Shown: piece after piece, positions 433 to 17,780 of the stretch
How the letters are laid out: every line of letters begins with the position of its first letter
How positions within the stretch are numbered: position 1 is the stretch's first letter
Assembly: GCA_000004695.1 (NCBI GenBank)
Contig: CM000155.2
Coordinates: 64,001 to 128,000 of the forward strand
DNA: 64,000 bases
Reading direction: 5' to 3'
From: Dictyostelium discoideum
Lineage: Eukaryota
Notes under the pieces: model-generated
Database searches by the model: none
Told to the model about the DNA's origin: nothing
Seen by the model: the letters and a program-made list of their open reading frames with translations, nothing else
Made by a program: the position numbers and the translations under genes

Positions 433-823
433 TTGGTCTTTTTTTTTTTTTTTCATATTTTTTTTTTTTTTTTTTCATATAATTATATTTTATCAACCCA
501 CCAATCACTTTTTTATTATTAATTTGTGTGTGTATTTGATTCAAATAATAAGTAAAAAAATAAAAAAATAAAAAATAAAAAAAAAAAAACGGTAATAGTA
601 AATAAAATAAAAAAATAAAAAAAAAAAAAAACCATTAGTAAATAAAATAAATAATATATAAATAAATTTCAATCCATATATATATAAATAAATTATCAAC
701 CCATATATATATATAAATTTTTTTTTTTAAAAAAAAATAAAAAACAATTTATTTTATTTTCCTTTTTTTTTACATATTTTTTTTTTTTTTTTTAAATTTT
801 TTTTTTGCGTATACTGTCCTTTG

Positions 824-3800
824 ATGACAAGTATTGAAAACCCCATATCACAAAATATCTATTATTTTGTTATTGTACCATTAATTTGTTTTGCAATTTA
901 TTGGGTGTTTTCATTTAGAAAAACAAAAACAACAACAACACCAGTCACCACAACAACAACCGAATCACCAATCCCAACAGAGGAAGTTGAGGAAACTAAA
1001 ACATTCAACTCATCATCATCATCATCATCATCATCATCAACAACAACAAAAAAAACACCAACAATTGAAGAATTATTAATTACTAATACTATTGATATAA
1101 ATAATAATAATAAACCAAAAAAAACTATTGAAGAAATTATGTTTAATATAAAAAAGAGAAAAGAGAGTATAACAGGTATACCACCAATAAATGTTAATAG
1201 TCCACAATCAGTTCCATTGAGTGGAACATTGCAATCACCATTGATTACACCAAATTCACCAAATTTTGTTTCACGTCAATGTCCATTCAAAAAGTTTGGA
1301 TGTAGTAGTTTTTTAGTTTCAAAGGCAGAGTTTGATAATCACTTAAAGGATGACGCACAATTTCATTTACAATTGGCAGTGGAGAAATTTGATCATCAAT
1401 TTGATTTACACACACAATTGATGGCACATTTTACTGAGCAAATGGAGGATCAATTAGAGAAAACAATGAAGGTCGTACGTAATCATACAGATAGTTTAGG
1501 CGGTAATGTTCAAACCAAATTGGATGAAGGCATTGAAAAATGTATGGCTTTTGCTAAAAAGGTTGAACAACAACAACAACAATTGGCCAAAAGATTAATC
1601 ACTCAACAAATTCAAGAGAAGAAATCAACCTCTTCACCTTTAGTTAAAGGTGGTATTAGTGGTGGTGGTGGTAGTGGTGGCGATGATTCTTTTGATGGCG
1701 CAAATATATCATCAATGTCAACTAGTAAACAAGAATTACAACAAGAATTACAATCATTATCAATTAAAATGAAAAAAGAATTGACAGAATTATCCGATGA
1801 ACTATCACAAAAATTAGAACGTTCAACAGGTAATATAGATATTAAAATAAAGAGAATCGAAGGTGAAGTTAATGAAAAGATTGATAAACGTCAATTGGTC
1901 TCTACGATCGATGATTCAATTGGAAAGAAAACAGATTCCATCGGTTATACATTGGAGAGTTCAATCATTAAAAAGGTTGAAGAGAAAGAGAAAAAGAAAT
2001 CCGAACAAAATCAACTTCTCTTTGATTCAAAGATTGAATCCTTAAAAGATAAGATTAAAATCATTGAAACTCAACAATTGGATACTTCATCAGAGGTTAG
2101 AAAATTGAAATTAGAAAGTACAAGTAGTGGAAATTTAATGGCAGGTCTTAATGGTACCTCTGGTAGACCTTCATCATCTTCTCACTTTATTCCATCCTCT
2201 GTTTCTGCCGCTGCTAACAATATCAACAAGAATGAAATCATGGAAGAGGTTAAAAAGGTAGAAGAGAAACTTCAAAAGAAAATTCGTGAAGAGATTGATA
2301 ATACAAAATCTGAACTCTCAAAGGTTGAACGTTCCGTTAAAGATAATCGTAGTGAAATTGAAGGTTTGGAAAAAGATTGTAAGAATCAATTCGATAAACA
2401 AGACAATAAGATCAAACAAGTTGAGGATGATTTGAAAAAGAGTGATTCATTACTTTTGTTAATGCAAAATAACCTCAAGAAATATAATGAATTTGTTGAT
2501 AGAGAACGTGATCGTGAAAGTGAACGTTTGAAACTTCAAGATTCTATCAAACGTTTAGAACAAAATCAAAAGAAAATCGAAGCTGAAATTCAAGAAGGTA
2601 ATGAACAAGTTGAACGTGTTTTACGTGAGGAAGCTTCAATCTCACCAATTAGTTCAGTTCCAAAATCACCAATCACAACCAAACGTTCATCGATTATTTT
2701 AAATTCACCACCAATGACTTCACAACAATCATCACCAAAGATTCAAGATCTTCTCTCAAGTAGTGGTAGTAGTAGTGTTAGTGGTATAAATATTTCCTCT
2801 GAAACCGGTGAAATGGGTATTCTTTGGGAATTTGATCCAATCATTAACAAATGGATTAGATTATCAATGAAGCTAAAGGTAGAAAGAAAACCATTTGCAG
2901 AGGGTGCTCTTAGAGAGGCTTATCATACCGTTTCATTGGGTGTTGGAACCGATGAAAATTATCCATTAGGTACAACCACCAAATTATTCCCACCAATTGA
3001 AATGATTTCACCAATTTCAAAGAATAATGAGGCAATGACTCAATTGAAGAATGGTACAAAATTTGTTTTGAAACTCTACAAAAAGGAAGCTGAACAACAA
3101 GCTAGCAGAGAATTATACTTTGAAGATGTTAAAATGCAAATGGTCTGTAGAGATTGGGGTAATAAATTCAATCAAAAGAAACCACCAAAGAAAATTGAAT
3201 TCCTTATGTCTTGGGTTGTAGAGTTAATCGATAGATCTCCTTCTTCCAATGGTCAACCAATACTTTGTTCCATTGAACCATTATTGGTTGGTGAATTCAA
3301 AAAGAATAATTCAAATTATGGTGCAGTTTTAACCAATCGTTCAACTCCACAAGCATTCTCTCATTTCACCTATGAACTCTCAAATAAACAAATGATCGTT
3401 GTCGATATTCAAGGTGTTGATGATCTTTACACTGATCCTCAAATTCATACACCCGATGGTAAAGGATTTGGTCTTGGTAATCTTGGTAAAGCAGGTATCA
3501 ATAAATTCATCACCACTCACAAATGTAATGCTGTTTGTGCTCTTTTAGATTTAGATGTTAAATTGGGTGGTGTACTATCTGGAAATAATAAGAAACAACT
3601 TCAACAAGGTACTATGGTTATGCCAGATATTCTCCCAGAACTTATGCCATCTGATAACACCATTAAAGTGGGTGCAAAACAACTTCCAAAAGCTGAATTC
3701 TCAAAGAAAGATCTCAAATGTGTTAGCACCATTCAAAGTTTCCGTGAACGTGTTAACTCGATCGCATTCTTTGATAATCAAAAGTTATTATGCGCTGGTT

Positions 3801-4579
3801 ATGGTGATGGTACCTATAGAGTTTTCGATGTCAATGACAATTGGAAATGTTTATACACTGTCAATGGTCATAGAAAATCAATTGAAAGTATCGCTTGTAA
3901 TAGTAATTACATTTTCACTTCATCACCTGATAACACCATCAAAGTTCATATCATTCGTAGTGGTAACACCAAATGTATAGAGACATTGGTTGGTCACACT
4001 GGTGAAGTTAATTGTGTCGTGGCCAATGAAAAATATCTTTTCAGTTGTAGTTATGATAAAACTATCAAGGTTTGGGATTTGTCAACCTTTAAAGAAATTA
4101 AATCATTTGAGGGTGTTCATACAAAGTACATTAAAACATTGGCTTTGAGTGGACGTTATCTTTTTAGTGGTGGTAACGATCAAATCATTTACGTTTGGGA
4201 TACTGAAACACTTAGTATGCTTTTCAATATGCAAGGTCATGAAGATTGGGTACTCTCTCTTCATTGTACCGCTAGTTATCTTTTCTCAACCTCAAAAGAT
4301 AATGTCATCAAGATTTGGGATCTCTCAAATTTCAGTTGTATCGATACTCTAAAAGGTCATTGGAATTCTGTCTCAAGTTGTGTCGTAAAAGATCGTTATC
4401 TATACAGTGGTTCTGAAGATAATTCAATCAAAGTTTGGGATCTCGATACACTTGAATGTGTTTACACCATTCCAAAATCTCATTCTTTGGGTGTAAAATG
4501 TTTAATGGTTTTCAATAATCAAATCATTTCTGCTGCTTTCGATGGTTCAATTAAAGTTTGGGAATGGCAATCGAAATAA
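824..4579 (+). CDS. Alpha-kinase family protein with coiled-coil region and C-terminal WD40 beta-propeller (myosin heavy chain kinase-like); N-terminal hydrophobic segment and a TRAF-like Cys/His motif
   Basis: Single uninterrupted ORF; the track's first M is a TTG at 821, and the first ATG is at 824. The N-terminus has a hydrophobic stretch (YYFVIVPLICFAIYWVFSF) and a Cys/His motif (CPFKKFGCSSFLVSKAEFDNHLKDDAQFHLQ). A long coiled-coil-like K/E-rich middle follows. The atypical alpha-kinase catalytic domain is recognisable (WEFDPIINKWIRLSMKLKVERKPFAEGALREAYHT ... GVDDLYTDPQIHTPDGKGFGLGNLGKAGINKFITTHKCNAVCALLDL). Seven WD40-like repeats follow, each ending in IKVWDL or similar. This architecture matches the Dictyostelium MHCK A-D family; I cannot assign the paralog. 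Confidence 0.85.
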   Translation: MTSIENPISQNIYYFVIVPLICFAIYWVFSFRKTKTTTTPVTTTTTESPIPTEEVEETKTFNSSSSSSSSSSTTTKKTPTIEELLITNTIDINNNNKPKKTIEEIMFNIKKRKESITGIPPINVNSPQSVPLSGTLQSPLITPNSPNFVSRQCPFKKFGCSSFLVSKAEFDNHLKDDAQFHLQLAVEKFDHQFDLHTQLMAHFTEQMEDQLEKTMKVVRNHTDSLGGNVQTKLDEGIEKCMAFAKKVEQQQQQLAKRLITQQIQEKKSTSSPLVKGGISGGGGSGGDDSFDGANISSMSTSKQELQQELQSLSIKMKKELTELSDELSQKLERSTGNIDIKIKRIEGEVNEKIDKRQLVSTIDDSIGKKTDSIGYTLESSIIKKVEEKEKKKSEQNQLLFDSKIESLKDKIKIIETQQLDTSSEVRKLKLESTSSGNLMAGLNGTSGRPSSSSHFIPSSVSAAANNINKNEIMEEVKKVEEKLQKKIREEIDNTKSELSKVERSVKDNRSEIEGLEKDCKNQFDKQDNKIKQVEDDLKKSDSLLLLMQNNLKKYNEFVDRERDRESERLKLQDSIKRLEQNQKKIEAEIQEGNEQVERVLREEASISPISSVPKSPITTKRSSIILNSPPMTSQQSSPKIQDLLSSSGSSSVSGINISSETGEMGILWEFDPIINKWIRLSMKLKVERKPFAEGALREAYHTVSLGVGTDENYPLGTTTKLFPPIEMISPISKNNEAMTQLKNGTKFVLKLYKKEAEQQASRELYFEDVKMQMVCRDWGNKFNQKKPPKKIEFLMSWVVELIDRSPSSNGQPILCSIEPLLVGEFKKNNSNYGAVLTNRSTPQAFSHFTYELSNKQMIVVDIQGVDDLYTDPQIHTPDGKGFGLGNLGKAGINKFITTHKCNAVCALLDLDVKLGGVLSGNNKKQLQQGTMVMPDILPELMPSDNTIKVGAKQLPKAEFSKKDLKCVSTIQSFRERVNSIAFFDNQKLLCAGYGDGTYRVFDVNDNWKCLYTVNGHRKSIESIACNSNYIFTSSPDNTIKVHIIRSGNTKCIETLVGHTGEVNCVVANEKYLFSCSYDKTIKVWDLSTFKEIKSFEGVHTKYIKTLALSGRYLFSGGNDQIIYVWDTETLSMLFNMQGHEDWVLSLHCTASYLFSTSKDNVIKIWDLSNFSCIDTLKGHWNSVSSCVVKDRYLYSGSEDNSIKVWDLDTLECVYTIPKSHSLGVKCLMVFNNQIISAAFDGSIKVWEWQSK

Positions 4580-5232: not shown

Positions 5233-5619
5233 ATGATGATTAAAGCTATCCTTTTAATTTCTTGTATCTTTGCATTCTTATCAATGGGTGTTATTTCTGA
5301 CTCTAACCAAATTTCAATGTCTCAAAATCAAACATCAACATGGGATGATAAAAATACCACATTTACTGTTTGGGAAGTGATGTTGGTAAATAATTGGAAT
5401 GCAACAATTATTGACTTGACCATTACTGCAACCGCTAATTTCTTTTCTTCAAAACCAAGTGATATTTGGAATGTTGAAAAAGTTTCTGACAAAGTTTACC
5501 ATTTCCAACCATATTTAATCCAAAATGGTTTATCAACTGGTGAAAACTTCACCTTTGGTTATATCAATGAAGCTAAAACACAAGCAACATTTGAAATCTC
5601 AAACATTAAAACTAAATAA
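5233..5619 (+). CDS. Small secreted protein (signal peptide plus single beta-rich domain with conserved Trp/aromatic pattern; possible carbohydrate-binding-module-like domain)
   Basis: ATG at 5233 followed by a classic signal peptide (MMIKAILLISCIFAFLSMGVISD). The 128-aa ORF carries W/N/T-rich motifs (TFTVWEVMLVNNWNATIIDL ... GENFTFGYI) reminiscent of small CBM-type domains. Single exon. The function call is tentative. Confidence 0.5.
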   Translation: MMIKAILLISCIFAFLSMGVISDSNQISMSQNQTSTWDDKNTTFTVWEVMLVNNWNATIIDLTITATANFFSSKPSDIWNVEKVSDKVYHFQPYLIQNGLSTGENFTFGYINEAKTQATFEISNIKTK

Positions 5620-5907: not shown

Positions 5908-6492
5908 ATGGAAAAAAAAAAAAATTTAGAACAAGATTGTATTTTTAGAATAGTTATTATTGGATATGACTATGAGTGTGGTATAAAATCGTTATTAAAA
6001 AAGTTTACTTTGGGAGAGTTTTCACCATTTCCTGAAAGTCAGGTTGGTGTAGACTTTGATATTAAAACTATAAATGTTGATAATCAAGATATTAAACTTC
6101 AAATTTGGCCCCAAAATAAATATTTTAATGACACTTCAGATAAAAGAGATTTCCTTTACAAGGGAGCCCATGGATATTTATTAGTGTATGGATGTCATAG
6201 CCAAAAAAGTTTTGATAATCTATTAAATGATTGGATGGTTCAAATTGATAAATTTTCAAATGAATTCTCTAAAAGGAATTTAGTTTTGGTTTGTAATAAT
6301 TCTGAAACTCCTGAAACATACATGACCAAACCAAATTACCTTGTTGATTCCAATATTACCAAACAATGGGCAAATTCAAAAAATATTCCTTTTTTTGAAA
6401 TTAACCCAAAAGAGAACTTTAATGTTGATGAACCTTTTATACAACTTGCAAGGCTAATTAAAAACCAAAATTTTATTAATTCTACCAAATAG
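5908..6492 (+). CDS. Degenerate Ras/Rab-like small GTPase fold protein (pseudo-GTPase: P-loop and switch II catalytic motifs not conserved)
   Basis: ATG at 5908, 194 aa. The overall small-GTPase layout is present, but the canonical motifs are replaced: IVIIGYDYECGIKS stands where the P-loop GxxxxGK[ST] should be, DFDIKTI replaces the switch I region, and LQIWPQNKYF replaces DTAGQE. The remainder (GAHGYLLVYGCHSQKSFDNL ... LVLVCNNSE) still aligns to G4/G5-region topology (NKxD replaced by CNNSE). Coding-like composition. Confidence 0.6.
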   Translation: MEKKKNLEQDCIFRIVIIGYDYECGIKSLLKKFTLGEFSPFPESQVGVDFDIKTINVDNQDIKLQIWPQNKYFNDTSDKRDFLYKGAHGYLLVYGCHSQKSFDNLLNDWMVQIDKFSNEFSKRNLVLVCNNSETPETYMTKPNYLVDSNITKQWANSKNIPFFEINPKENFNVDEPFIQLARLIKNQNFINSTK

Positions 6493-8830: not shown

Positions 8831-8960
8831 TGATTTTCATTTTTTTTAAATTAATTTAGTTCTCATATTTTTTTTTTTTTCATTTTTTTGATTATTATTG
8901 TTATTATTTTTTTATTTTTTTTTAAATGAAAAAGTAAAAGAATATAGCCATCAACCAAGA

Positions 8961-14028
<5,068 letters not shown>

Positions 14029-14788: not shown

Positions 14789-16092
14789 ATGGTATGTGTA
14801 TAATTTTAAGTTTTATTAATAGAACTAATAATGATAAAGAAAAAATTAATTTGAAAATAAAAAATAATATGAGTGTTTATTATAAATAAACTCTTTTTAT
14901 TATTTAATTTTTTATTTTTTCATTTATTTATTTTTTTTTCATTATATATAAAAAAAAACTTCTTTAATGTTCTCAATTTATTAACACTTTTTTTTTTTTT
15001 TTTTTTAATTTCATTACCTTTATTTAGGCAGAAAAAGAACAAATTAAATTAGTCTTAGTTGGTGATGGTGGTGTTGGTAAAGTAAGTAAAAGAAGTTCGT
15101 AAAAAAAATAAAAAAATAAAAAAATAATAATAATAAAACATCAAATCATATTAATTTAATTCTTTCTTCTTTTTTTTAGACCACTTTTGTCCAACGTCAT
15201 CTTACTGGTGAATTCGAACCAAGATATATCCGTATGTATCCTTTTATTATTATTTTTTTTTTCTTACAAAAAAAAAAAAAAATAAAAAAAATAAGATTTA
15301 GCAATTGATCTCAAATTACAGAATATTTAATATTGGTTTATTTGGGTAGCAATATGTTTTTTTGTTAGTCAAAAGCTTATCACTTTACAATATTTAGGAA
15401 TCAAATTTTAACTGTTTTTTTTTTTTTTTTTCCTTTTTTTTTTTTCTTCAATAATATAGCAACTCTTGGTGTATCAGTCCATCCATTAATCTTCTACACC
15501 AATTTCGGTAAAATCCACTTCAATGTATGGGATACCGCTGGTCAAGAAAAATTCGGTGGTTTAAGAGATGGTTATTAGTAAGTTGAATATAAACACACTC
15601 ATCCATCATATGATCATTAACGAAATTAAATTACTAACTTTTTTATTTTTTAATTTTAATTTTTTTATTATTTTATATAGTATTCAAGGTAATTGTGCCA
15701 TTATTATGTTTGATGTCACATCCCGTATTTCATACAAAAATGTTCCAAATTGGCACTCTGATTTAACCAGAGTTTGTGAAAACATCCCAATCGTTTTATG
15801 TGGTAACAAAGTTGATGTTAAAGATCGTAAAGTCAAACCATCCCAAATTGTTTTCCATCGTAGATACAATTTATCATACTATGATGTTTCAGCCAAATCA
15901 AATTACAATTTCGAAAAACCATTCGTCTGGTTAACATCAAAACTCCTCGGTAACAAGGCTGTCACTCTCGTTCAACAACCAACCTTAAAATTACCAGAAA
16001 CCGTTCTCGATTCCAACTTAATGAGTTTATATGAAAAAGAAGTCGCTGATGCTGCTGCCCTCCCATTACCAGAAGACAATGATGACTTGTAA
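14789..16092 (+). CDS. ranA: GTP-binding nuclear protein Ran; 5 exons, first coding exon is the ATG alone
   Basis: Model: join(14789..14791,15028..15081,15180..15231,15460..15577,15681..16092). The spliced product is a full-length canonical Ran: [91 protein letters not shown]...[10 protein letters not shown]...[12 protein letters not shown]...LPEDNDDL. The ATG is followed immediately by a GTATGT donor. The other donors are GTAAGT, GTATGT and GTAAGT, all introns ending in AG. Confidence 0.93.
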
Positions 16093-16307: not shown

Positions 16308-17780
16308 TTATTGAATACCATATTTTTTTATTGTATTATCATACCATCCCTTTCTAATTTGTTTATCTTTTTCTTTTAAATTTGACTTGAATATTTGTTT
16401 TGGATTTAAATCTAGTGGCCAAACAGGTAAATAGATTACTTTTTCAGGGTCATCAACAGTCATACCCTTTTTAAACATTTCAACACCAGCCCATGCAATC
16501 ATGGTTCCATTGTCATTACATAATTCGGGTCTTGGGAAATAGATTGGCAAATTATAACGTTTTCCAATATCATCTATTCTTTTTCTTAAATTATTATTCT
16601 TTGAAACACCTCCAGAAACTACAATTCCTTTTAGTGGTTCCCTTTTAATGATTTCTATTGCCGGAGGTTTACCACTTTTTGTTTTTGATGCTAATAATTC
16701 ATTTTTCTTTTGTTTTGGTGTTTTAAAATTATAATACCAATCTAATGACTTTTTAATTCTATGTTCTAAATGATTAAATGCAACATTTTGAAATGATGCT
16801 GCTAAATTACATTTATCAACGAATGATAATTCATTTTCATCTGTTATTAAATTATTTGTTTCTGTTGTTATTATTGTTGTTGTTGTTGTTGTTGTTGTTG
16901 TTTTTGTTGTTGTATTATTAGTTATTGATGATGATGAAGATGATTTTGATTTAATTTCTTTTACTAATCTTGCAAGTGAAGATTTTATACCAGAAAAAGA
17001 GAAATCACAATTATTTGAATCTTTCATTGGTAAAGTGAAATGATGACTATTTGGATCACCTTTTGAAGCTAAAATTTCAATAGCTTGACCGCCATGTATA
17101 TTCTCGATTAAAGATTGACCATCCCAAACTTGGCCATATGGACAACCCAAGATTCTTGCTGCTTTATCTAATGCTTCACCAATAGAATCATCCAATGTAT
17201 TGCCAATGAGTTGATATTTTGAAACATCATTACATATTAAAATTTGTGAATGTCCACCACTGACCAATACAATAAGAAATGGAAATTCAATTGAATGGTT
17301 TTCCATTCTAACCACTAAACTATGACCTTCCATATGGTTCACTGAACAGAATGGTTTTTTAAATTCTCTATACAATTGTTTGGCTTTGTTTAATCCAACT
17401 TCCAATGATTTACCCATACCTGGTCCCGTTGTAACCGCTATTACATCGATATCCTCCATTGTCATACCAGCTTTATCCAATGTTTTTTCAATGGCATTAT
17501 CAATCTCATTTTGATGTGCTTCAAATGCAATTGATGGTACAATTCCATTATGTACTTTATGTAATGACCATTGAGGTTTAGAATATTCTGCCATAATCTT
17601 TCCTTCACTATTTACAATGCCAATACTTGTATCATCACAACTAGTTTCAATACCAATAACATTAAATATTTTCTTATTATTAATATTATTATTATTAAGA
17701 CCACTGCCACTCATTTTACTATAATATTTTAGATTATTTTTATAAAAATTATTTTTAATTTTATAAATTGATCTTATCAT
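16308..17780 (-). CDS. osgepl1: tRNA N6-adenosine threonylcarbamoyltransferase, mitochondrial type (Kae1/TsaD family; Qri7/OSGEPL1 ortholog) with an internal Ser/Thr-rich insertion
   Basis: Single exon with a real ATG at 17780. It carries TsaD/Qri7-type motifs (IGIETSCDDTSIGIV ... VTTGPGMGKSLEVGLNKAKQL ... SVNHMEGH ... VSGGVSKNN). It is more like bacterial/mitochondrial TsaD than cytosolic Kae1. The N-terminus has a basic, presequence-like extension. A roughly 45-aa S/T-rich insertion is encoded partly by a (TTG)n/(ACA)n microsatellite. Confidence 0.88.
   Translation of the reverse strand: MIRSIYKIKNNFYKNNLKYYSKMSGSGLNNNNINNKKIFNVIGIETSCDDTSIGIVNSEGKIMAEYSKPQWSLHKVHNGIVPSIAFEAHQNEIDNAIEKTLDKAGMTMEDIDVIAVTTGPGMGKSLEVGLNKAKQLYREFKKPFCSVNHMEGHSLVVRMENHSIEFPFLIVLVSGGHSQILICNDVSKYQLIGNTLDDSIGEALDKAARILGCPYGQVWDGQSLIENIHGGQAIEILASKGDPNSHHFTLPMKDSNNCDFSFSGIKSSLARLVKEIKSKSSSSSSITNNTTTKTTTTTTTTTIITTETNNLITDENELSFVDKCNLAASFQNVAFNHLEHRIKKSLDWYYNFKTPKQKKNELLASKTKSGKPPAIEIIKREPLKGIVVSGGVSKNNNLRKRIDDIGKRYNLPIYFPRPELCNDNGTMIAWAGVEMFKKGMTVDDPEKVIYLPVWPLDLNPKQIFKSNLKEKDKQIRKGWYDNTIKKYGIQ

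What the first reader, a model, noticed from the sequence alone, without database searches (positions are those of the whole stretch)
5908..6492. Ras/Rab-like pseudo-GTPase lacking P-loop and switch II catalytic residues
The 194-aa ORF has small-GTPase length and secondary-structure periodicity, but every nucleotide-contact motif is substituted. IVIIGYDYECGIKS stands where GxxxxGK[ST] should be, IWPQNK stands where DTAGQ should be, and there is no NKxD. Coding-like composition and a clean ATG context suggest it is expressed rather than a decayed pseudogene. Nucleotide-free GTPase-fold proteins act as scaffolds or regulators in other systems, and this one sits 300 bp from a secreted-protein gene.
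Basis: partly seen in the sequence, partly recalled or inferred. Interest (0 to 1): 0.6.

Follow-up and report, generated by a model that had tools for sequence, protein, structure and literature searches.

The report
Rab1-derived pseudo-GTPase RabU of Dictyostelium
The ORF is the already catalogued Dictyostelium discoideum gene rabU, a young Rab1-like protein that has lost every GTP-binding motif and its lipid anchor yet is clearly kept by natural selection, so it is probably a "dead" GTPase working as a binding protein rather than a molecular switch.

Summary
Window 5908-6492 (+) is an intact 194-codon gene, identical to D. discoideum AX4 RabU (UniProt Q54EW9, named "Rab GTPase" in public records).

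- **Homology:** it matches Pfam Ras along the whole model (E = 2e-23). Its closest relatives, by sequence and by predicted fold, are Rab1/Ypt1 (about 36% identity).
- **Motif loss:** all five nucleotide motifs are replaced. G1 is GYDYECGIKS, the G2 Thr is Gln, G3 is WPQNKY, G4 is NNSE and G5 is NPK. The C-terminal tail and prenylation cysteines are absent.
- **Not a pseudogene:** intact syntenic orthologues exist in D. citrinum, D. dimigraforme and D. firmibasis. dN/dS is 0.13-0.29 (p ≤ 4e-8 in every pair). The degenerate motifs themselves do not vary.
- **Distribution:** no RabU-like protein was found outside this species group among 1.8 billion representatives.

The best reading is a lineage-specific, soluble Rab1-derived pseudoGTPase (candidate class i) that acts by nucleotide-independent protein binding. 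Nucleotide binding, expression and partners are untested. PseudoRabs are already known in Entamoeba, and pseudoGTPases are an established class, so this is a new member of a known kind. Interest is modest.

The parts
5908..6492 (+). Single-exon coding sequence of rabU (194 aa plus TAG stop). It is a Rab1-derived pseudoGTPase candidate.
   Evidence: ORF. Exact match to D. discoideum AX4 RabU, Q54EW9 / XP_635121.1. Pfam Ras E = 2.3e-23. Purifying selection, dN/dS 0.13-0.29.
5962..5991 (+). Degenerate G1/P-loop, residues 19-28: GYDYECGIKS in place of GDSGVGKS. It is one or two residues longer, and no GxxxxGK[ST] pattern remains.
   Evidence: Alignments to Rab1A. 8 of 10 positions are invariant in four species.
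6007..6045 (+). Former switch I, residues 34-46. The Mg-coordinating Thr (Rab1A T43) is Gln45, or Glu in D. dimigraforme.
   Evidence: Alignment. 7 of 13 columns vary among species. Model pLDDT for residues 41-50 is 64.
6043..6108 (+). Retained Rab-family interswitch hairpin, residues 46-67, with RabF1 (VGVDF) and RabF2 (KLQIW). This is the most Rab1-like stretch of the protein.
   Evidence: Alignment to Rab1A: VGVDFDIKTINVDNQDIKLQIW against [22 protein letters not shown]. F50, K63-W67 are invariant.
6106..6162 (+). Degenerate G3/switch II, residues 67-85: WPQNKY... in place of WDTAGQE. The Asp, Gly and catalytic Gln are lost, RabF3 is lost, and there is a one-residue length change.
   Evidence: This is the most variable internal region, with 13 of 18 columns varying and an in-frame indel in D. 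firmibasis. Model pLDDT is 60.
6295..6348 (+). Degenerate G4 (NNSE in place of NKxD), followed by a conserved ETPET segment and an insertion of about 6-8 residues relative to Rab1. Residues 130-147.
   Evidence: CNN[SA]ETPET is invariant apart from one position in four species.
6403..6411 (+). Degenerate G5, residues 166-168: NPK in place of SAK.
6469..6492 (+). Truncated C-terminus (NFINSTK, then stop). The hypervariable tail and the CC/CxC prenylation motif are absent.
   Evidence: Alignment with Rab1A, which runs about 27 residues further and ends in GGCC. None of the eight RabU sequences has a C-terminal Cys.

Best explanation
The ORF is rabU. It is a functional gene, restricted to the D. 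discoideum species group, that descends from a Rab1-type GTPase and now encodes a pseudoGTPase. It keeps the Rab G-domain fold but has lost all five nucleotide-contact motifs and the prenylated tail.

The most likely mechanism is as follows. RabU is a soluble protein that no longer cycles between GTP and GDP states and cannot be inserted into membranes by geranylgeranylation. It acts as a constitutive protein-binding module (candidate class i pseudoGTPase). It probably binds through one or both of two surfaces: the retained Rab interswitch face (RabF1/RabF2, F50, W67) and the remodelled, strongly constrained loops that used to line the nucleotide pocket.

Shown here: homology to Rab1, loss of the motifs and the tail, intact syntenic orthologues, purifying selection, and restriction to one species group in the sampled databases. 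Inferred: absence of nucleotide binding and hydrolysis, solubility, and the binding-module role. Unknown: the partner and the cellular process.
For: - Identity: exact match to RabU, Q54EW9.
- Homology: Pfam Ras E = 2.3e-23 along the full model. PDB best hits are Rab1A/B and Ypt1, E = 1e-24 to 1e-20. The nearest proteins in a 5.8-billion-sequence database are Rab1-type at 33-37% identity.
- Fold: AF2 model with pLDDT 84.5 and pTM 0.84. Foldseek top hits are all Rab1, E = 8e-16, TM 0.81-0.86.
- Motif loss: G1-G5 are all replaced and there is no C-terminal Cys.
- Selection: four species and eight distinct sequences are all full length. dN/dS is 0.13-0.29, similar to the neighbouring CBM49 gene at 0.13-0.25. 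The one-sided test of dN < dS gives p ≤ 4e-8 in all six pairs. In a neutral-drift simulation, 0 of 5000 copies kept the ORF. The CDS has at most 4% gaps between species, all in frame, against 20-74% gaps in the flanks.
- Constraint on the degenerate loops: former pocket loops have dN/dS 0.10 and 9 of 34 variable columns, against switch I+II at 0.28 and 20 of 31 (Fisher p = 0.003). In a working Rab the switches would be expected to be among the most conserved segments.
- Synteny: the order alpha-kinase/WD40, CBM49, RabU, lpd is conserved in all four species.
- Precedent: class i pseudoGTPases act as protein-interaction modules, for example the AAGAB pseudoGTPase domain (PMC12490416).
Against: - No biochemical data exist, so loss of nucleotide binding is inferred from motifs alone. 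K27-S28 and N130 are invariant, and the pocket loops are the most constrained part of the protein, which would also fit a ligand still binding there.
- Expression could not be verified. No RNA or proteomic evidence was obtainable.
- The confident structural model relies on Rab1 homologues in its alignment. With the four orthologues alone, pLDDT is 46.7.
- The region comparison used boundaries chosen after seeing the data, and only four species.
- No partner is known, and no canonical Rab from the same four species was available as a rate control.
Confidence: 0.6

Rival explanations
1. RabU still binds a nucleotide, or another phosphate-bearing ligand, in a non-canonical way. That would make it an atypical GTPase or a class ii/iii pseudoGTPase, locked in one state, rather than nucleotide-free.
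For: K27 and S28, a Lys-Ser pair at the end of the expanded P-loop, are invariant, as is N130 of the former NKxD. Glu133 sits where the guanine-specifying Asp would be. The former pocket loops are the most constrained part of the protein, with dN/dS 0.10. [quoted passage not shown]
Against: No GxxxxGK[ST] pattern remains. The loop is one or two residues longer and carries bulky and acidic residues (Tyr20, Tyr22, Glu23), and an Ile is inserted between the Gly and the Lys. The Mg/gamma-phosphate ligands are all gone: Thr to Gln in switch I, and Asp to Pro and Gly to Lys in DxxG. The catalytic Gln is Tyr, and SAK is NPK. Switch II is the most variable internal region and carries an indel, which is not expected for a nucleotide-sensing element.
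Confidence: 0.2
2. RabU is a conventional Rab GTPase switch, as its database name ('Rab GTPase', 'Ras-related protein RabU') implies.
For: Public records name it so. It belongs to the Ras/Rab family by sequence and keeps RabF1 and RabF2.
Against: All five G motifs, the catalytic Gln and the prenylation cysteines are absent. All 149 other best hits of the profile search were screened for the RabU combination of changes and none has it. The 12 read in full have canonical motifs, and the 24 flagged by the screen each lack only one or two motif patterns.
Confidence: 0.04
3. RabU is a decaying duplicate (unitary pseudogene) whose ORF survives by chance.
For: It has lost all the catalytic motifs of its parent family, is restricted to a narrow species group, ends in the rarer TAG stop codon, and has no demonstrated expression.
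Against: ORFs are intact in four species and eight sequences, and all indels are in frame. dN/dS is 0.13-0.29 with p ≤ 4e-8. No simulated neutral copy (0 of 5000) kept the ORF at the observed divergence. Composition and alignability differ sharply from the flanks. The degenerate motifs are themselves conserved.
Confidence: 0.03

Closest known systems
Rab1 / Ypt1 subfamily of Rab GTPases (for example human Rab1A/B and yeast Ypt1)
   Same: They share the G-domain fold. Rab1 is the best sequence and structure match. The RabF1 (VGVDF) and RabF2 (KLQIW) motifs and the interswitch hairpin are retained, and GAHG, beta4 and alpha5 are recognisably Rab1-like.
   Different: Identity is only about 36%. 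G1-G5 are all replaced and RabF3 is lost. There are insertions in the P-loop and after G4. The hypervariable tail and the CC prenylation motif are missing. RabU therefore cannot work as a membrane-anchored GTP/GDP switch in the way Rab1 does.
EhRabX10 and the EhRabX group of Entamoeba histolytica, described as 'pseudoRab GTPases' (PMC8514894)
   Same: These are also amoebozoan, lineage-specific, single-domain Rab-family proteins of similar size (188 aa) with non-canonical G motifs. The classification is from sequence and modelling only.
   Different: EhRabX10 keeps a canonical G1 P-loop, and its G3-G5 are milder variants (DTQDME, TKAD, SSQ). RabU has also lost G1, and its G3 retains nothing of DxxG. 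There is no evidence of common descent; these look like independent degenerations. For RabU, purifying selection across species is shown here.
Class i pseudoGTPases (AAGAB pseudoGTPase domain, p190RhoGAP pG1/pG2, and microsporidian ArlEM as a putative case)
   Same: They have a GTPase fold without the G motifs, are retained in evolution, and act (or are proposed to act) as protein-interaction modules rather than switches (PMC12490416; PMC13393502; PMC5593906, listed).
   Different: Those are ancient or domain-embedded modules. For AAGAB and p190RhoGAP the absence of binding is shown experimentally. RabU is a young, stand-alone Rab1 derivative, and its nucleotide binding is untested.

Membership tests
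Ras superfamily / Rab family (Pfam PF00071) | Significant full-length match to the family profile, above the curated threshold | tested here: met
   83 bits against a 21.6-bit cut-off, E = 2.3e-23, model positions 1-161 of 162.
Ras superfamily / Rab family (Pfam PF00071) | Rab-family (RabF1-F5) signature motifs. The motif definitions are from my own knowledge of Pereira-Leal & Seabra (2000); the concept is cited in PMC8514894. | tested here: inconclusive
   RabF1 (VGVDF) and RabF2 (KLQIW) are present. RabF4 (LYKGA) and RabF5 (LVYGCH) are partial. RabF3 is absent.
Ras superfamily / Rab family (Pfam PF00071) | Conserved G1-G5 nucleotide-binding motifs: GxxxxGK[ST], the switch I Thr, DxxGQ, NKxD and SAK | tested here: not met
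   The five positions read GYDYECGIKS, Gln45, WPQNKY, NNSE and NPK.
Ras superfamily / Rab family (Pfam PF00071) | C-terminal cysteine prenylation motif (CC, CxC or CaaX) | tested here: not met
   The protein ends NFINSTK. No Cys follows residue 129 in any of the eight sequences.
Ras superfamily / Rab family (Pfam PF00071) | GTP binding and hydrolysis | not testable with these tools
   This needs purified protein.
Rab1/Ypt1 orthologue group | Rab1 is the nearest family by sequence and by structure | tested here: met
   Rab1A/B lead the PDB sequence hits at about 84-90 bits, against 64-70 bits for Sec4, Rab35 and Rab8. Named profile-search hits are nearly all Rab1-type. Foldseek top hits are Rab1.
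Rab1/Ypt1 orthologue group | High identity typical of Rab1 orthologues, and placement inside the Rab1 clade in a phylogeny | tested here: not met
   Identity to Rab1 proteins is only 33-37%.
Class i pseudoGTPase (no nucleotide binding and no hydrolysis; definition as quoted in PMC12490416) | Adopts the GTPase fold | tested here: met
   AF2 pLDDT 84.5 and pTM 0.84, and Foldseek to Rab1 with TM 0.81-0.86. Caveat: the orthologue-only alignment gives pLDDT 46.7, so the fold rests on homology.
Class i pseudoGTPase (no nucleotide binding and no hydrolysis; definition as quoted in PMC12490416) | G-motif residues needed for binding and catalysis are absent | tested here: met
Class i pseudoGTPase (no nucleotide binding and no hydrolysis; definition as quoted in PMC12490416) | Experimentally shown not to bind or hydrolyse nucleotide | not testable with these tools
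   Needs a binding or thermal-shift assay, or HPLC of purified protein.
Class i pseudoGTPase (no nucleotide binding and no hydrolysis; definition as quoted in PMC12490416) | A maintained, functional protein rather than a pseudogene | tested here: met
   dN/dS 0.13-0.29, p ≤ 4e-8, intact ORFs in four species. Expression was not tested.
Unitary or decaying pseudogene | Frameshifts or stops in orthologues, dN/dS near 1, and composition drifting towards that of intergenic DNA | tested here: not met
   There are no disruptions, dN/dS is 0.13-0.29, and the CDS is 71-73% AT against 85-94% in the flanks.

The most novel reading that the evidence does not exclude
RabU is a naturally evolved, permanently nucleotide-free and unanchored Rab1 mimic. 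It would compete for proteins that recognise Rab1 through the interswitch face. On this reading it is either an endogenous regulator that sequesters a Rab1 exchange factor or effector (a natural 'dominant-negative'), or a decoy for the Rab1-targeting effectors of intracellular bacteria that prey on social amoebae. The evidence does not exclude this: the most Rab1-like stretch of RabU is the interswitch hairpin, and the gene is young and restricted to one species group. Nothing tested here supports it specifically either. The switch II residues that Legionella enzymes are known to modify (my own knowledge: Rab1b Ser76 and Tyr77) are not conserved in RabU; they are Phe82 and Leu83.
Probability: 0.1. 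Interest if true: 0.65.

Novelty: new member of a known kind. Interest (0 to 1): 0.3.

Why it matters
PseudoGTPases are a recently recognised class, and few have a known mechanism. RabU would be a clean, stand-alone example that arose recently from Rab1, whose biology is well understood, in an organism where knock-outs, tagging and pull-downs are routine. It could show how a switch protein is converted into a nucleotide-independent binding module. It also flags a database annotation ("Rab GTPase") that probably overstates the protein's activity. However, divergent Rab paralogues with broken motifs are common in protists with expanded Rab families, so the finding adds an example rather than a new principle.

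Tried and rejected
- **Orthologue-only structure prediction (A1, four sequences):** pLDDT 46.7, so it is uninformative as an independent check of the fold.
- **Literature:** searches for RabU, lettered Dictyostelium Rab names and Q54EW9, plus the supplements of a Dictyostelium microarray paper, gave nothing on RabU or its expression. The Dictyostelium genome paper and the pseudoGTPase review were not held.
- **Synteny beyond the species group:** the lpd loci of D. purpureum and Tieghemostelium lacteum are not syntenic, and tblastn finds no RabU relic there. Absence from those genomes elsewhere could not be checked directly.
- **Hidden distant orthologues:** none of the 149 other best hits of the exhaustive profile search shares RabU's combination of changes.
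- **Functional link to the CBM49 neighbour:** the only link is a fused D. firmibasis gene model. This is an annotation artefact, because both ORFs have their own start and stop.
- **Weak RabU-like tblastn hit at window 15700-15957:** this is the 3' exon of a canonical Ran-type GTPase and is unrelated.
- **Positive selection on switch II:** rejected. Its dN/dS is 0.21, so the region is relaxed in amino-acid terms but not above 1.

Full report
**What is there.** The window is AT-rich dictyostelid DNA. At 5908-6492 on the + strand there is a single ATG-to-TAG ORF of 194 codons. Its product is identical, residue for residue, to D. discoideum AX4 RabU (UniProt Q54EW9, XP_635121.1, named "Rab GTPase" / "Ras-related protein RabU"). 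The gene is therefore already catalogued. Seven full-text searches, plus a search of one paper's supplementary files, found no paper that discusses it.

Pfam's Ras model matches along its whole length: E = 2.3e-23, 83 bits against a 21.6-bit cut-off, model positions 1-161 of 162. Roc also matches. Against all PDB sequences the best hits are Rab1A, Rab1B and Ypt1 (E = 1e-24 to 1e-20), ahead of Sec4, Rab12, Rab35, Rab10, Rab3 and Rab8. A profile search of 5.8 billion proteins returned mostly Rab1-type proteins, 33-37% identical to RabU.

Residue-level alignment to Rab1A shows the following changes:

| Element | Rab1A | RabU |
|---|---|---|
| G1 / P-loop | GDSGVGKS | GYDYECGIKS (one or two residues longer; no GxxxxGK[ST] remains) |
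| G2 (switch I) | Thr | Gln45 |
| G3 / switch II | WDTAGQE | WPQNKY (Asp, Gly and the catalytic Gln all lost) |
| G4 | NKxD | NNSE, followed by a conserved ETPET and an insertion of about 6-8 residues |
| G5 | SAK | NPK |
| C-terminus | about 27 further residues ending GGCC | ends 7 residues after helix alpha5, with no cysteine |

What remains Rab-like is the interswitch hairpin with RabF1 (VGVDF) and RabF2 (KLQIW), together with GAHG/beta4, beta5, beta6 and alpha5.

**Fold.** An AlphaFold2 model built from RabU, its orthologues and 36 Rab1 homologues has mean pLDDT 84.5 and pTM 0.84. It shows the canonical beta1-alpha1-beta2-beta3-alpha2-beta4-alpha3-beta5-alpha4-beta6-alpha5 order. Confidence is low only in the former switch I (64) and switch II (60). 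Foldseek against the PDB puts Rab1A/B first, at E = 8e-16 and TM 0.81-0.86 normalised to the target. A control with only the four RabU orthologues gave pLDDT 46.7. The confident model therefore depends on the Rab1 sequences. The fold assignment rests on homology, and the modelled geometry of the degenerate loops should not be over-read.

**It is not a pseudogene.** A word-indexed search found only four protein clusters: D. discoideum, D. citrinum (79%), D. dimigraforme (73%) and D. firmibasis (70%). In all of them the gene lies in the same order, alpha-kinase/WD40, CBM49, RabU, dihydrolipoyl dehydrogenase. The D. firmibasis model that fuses CBM49 to RabU is an artefact, because both ORFs have their own start and stop. 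Adding other D. discoideum-group isolates gives eight distinct sequences. All are full length, and the degenerate motifs do not vary.

- Nei-Gojobori dN/dS is 0.13-0.29 for RabU. The CBM49 neighbour gives 0.13-0.25 and lpd gives 0.03-0.09.
- dN < dS has p ≤ 4e-8 in each of the six pairs.
- When the CDS was mutated neutrally to the observed synonymous divergence, 0 of 5000 copies kept an open frame.
- The CDS is 71-73% AT and aligns with at most 4% gaps, all in frame. The flanks are 85-94% AT and align with 20-74% gaps.

**Pattern of constraint.** The loops that used to line the nucleotide pocket (G1, beta5-G4-ETPET, beta6-G5) are the most constrained part of the protein: 9 of 34 columns vary, and dN/dS is 0.10. 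The former switch regions are the least constrained internal parts: 20 of 31 columns vary (Fisher p = 0.003), and dN/dS is 0.28. Switch II varies at 13 of 18 columns and has an in-frame indel. This is the reverse of what I would expect for a working Rab, whose switches carry the function. It fits a protein that no longer senses nucleotide but needs its remodelled pocket loops, either to fill the site or to bind something new. Three caveats apply: the boundaries were chosen after seeing the data, only four species are available, and no region has dN/dS near or above 1.

**Distribution and origin.** An exhaustive HMMER profile search of 1.84 billion cluster representatives scored the RabU cluster at 406 bits. 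Everything else scored far lower, about 97 bits for a single Rab domain. The 12 hits read in full are canonical, and none of the 149 other best hits shares RabU's combination of changes. The lpd loci of D. purpureum and T. lacteum are not syntenic and hold no RabU relic. RabU therefore looks like a Rab1-type duplicate that diverged rapidly in, or shortly before, the D. discoideum species group and is now held by purifying selection. A full-genome search of D. purpureum and a phylogeny with the Dictyostelium Rab1 paralogues could not be done with the tools and caps available.

**How it most likely works.** Shown: Rab1 descent, motif and tail loss, selection. Inferred: the P-loop is expanded and carries acidic and bulky residues, none of the Mg/gamma-phosphate ligands remains, there is no catalytic Gln, and G4 and G5 are altered, so RabU most probably neither hydrolyses nor canonically binds GTP. 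Without cysteines it cannot be geranylgeranylated, so it should be soluble unless a partner holds it on a membrane. That makes it a candidate class i pseudoGTPase in the sense used for the AAGAB pseudoGTPase domain (PMC12490416), acting through constitutive protein-protein binding. I put about 0.6 on this.

The main rival, at about 0.2, is non-canonical ligand binding in the conserved pocket. It is supported by the invariant K27-S28 and N130, and by the precedent, cited in the EhRabX10 paper, of the atypical but active EhRabX3. A conventional Rab switch (about 0.04) and a decaying pseudogene (about 0.03) are both disfavoured by the data.

**Comparison with what is known.** RabU works like a pseudoGTPase and descends from Rab1, but it fails the defining functional features of a Rab: the G motifs and the prenylation signal. 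The closest described analogue is Entamoeba EhRabX10, called a "pseudoRab". That protein still has a canonical G1 and milder changes in G3-G5, and it was studied only in silico. RabU is more degenerate, and its retention by selection is demonstrated here. A putative Arf-family pseudoGTPase has similarly been reported in Microsporidia (PMC13393502). The kind is therefore known, and this is a new, well-supported member in a tractable model organism.

**Verdict.** The adjacency to the CBM49 gene carries no demonstrated meaning. Interest is modest (0.3). It is a sound lead for pseudoGTPase biology and a correction to an over-confident database name, not a surprise to specialists.

Noticed in passing
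L003:6001-7160 (D. firmibasis, GCA_036169595.1, protein RB653_004980 / P0004): The public gene model joins the CBM49 gene and the RabU orthologue into one 299-aa protein through an invented intron. The CBM49 ORF has its own stop, and RabU has its own ATG at L003:6573. This looks like an annotation artefact.
   Followed up: yes
window 5233-5619 (+): A 128-aa protein with a hydrophobic, signal-like N-terminus and a CBM49 carbohydrate-binding domain (Pfam E = 1.9e-21). It is conserved next to rabU in all four species, with dN/dS 0.13-0.25.
   Followed up: partly
window 15568-16092 (+): The 3' exon of a canonical Ran-type small GTPase (Pfam Ras E = 2e-21, with NKVD and SAK intact and an acidic DEDDDL-like tail), about 9 kb from rabU. 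It gave the weak tblastn hit with RabU and is an unrelated, conventional GTPase.
   Followed up: partly
window 821-4579 (+): A 1252-codon ORF encoding a long N-terminal region rich in charged and low-complexity sequence, then an alpha-kinase domain (Pfam E = 8e-53) and a C-terminal WD40 propeller, resembling a myosin-heavy-chain-kinase-type architecture. It is syntenic in all four species.
   Followed up: partly
window 8898-9383 (+) and onward: The gene downstream of lpd begins with an uninterrupted run of about 45 glutamines. The opposite strand reads as poly-Val, poly-Leu or poly-Cys ORFs, which are artefacts of the repeat.
   Followed up: no
window 16308-17780 (-): A 490-aa ORF of the TsaD/Kae1 family (Pfam E = 1.6e-70) with a poly-Thr insertion. 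It is probably the mitochondrial t6A-synthesis paralogue.
   Followed up: no
P0148 and P0027 (hits, source organisms not shown): Other Rab-like proteins have an atypical G3/switch II (for example KLQIFEAMGD in place of KLQIWDTAGQ in P0148) but keep G1, G4, G5 and C-terminal cysteines. P0027 carries an Asn run typical of dictyostelid proteins. Partial motif erosion may be common among lineage-specific Rabs.
   Followed up: no
window 5908-6492 compared with P0001, P0007, P0006 and P0008: Isolates of D. discoideum and 'cf. discoideum' differ from AX4 RabU by a few substitutions (for example F41I, R123K, K168I). One isolate is a residue shorter at the C-terminus. None has a stop or frameshift.
   Followed up: partly
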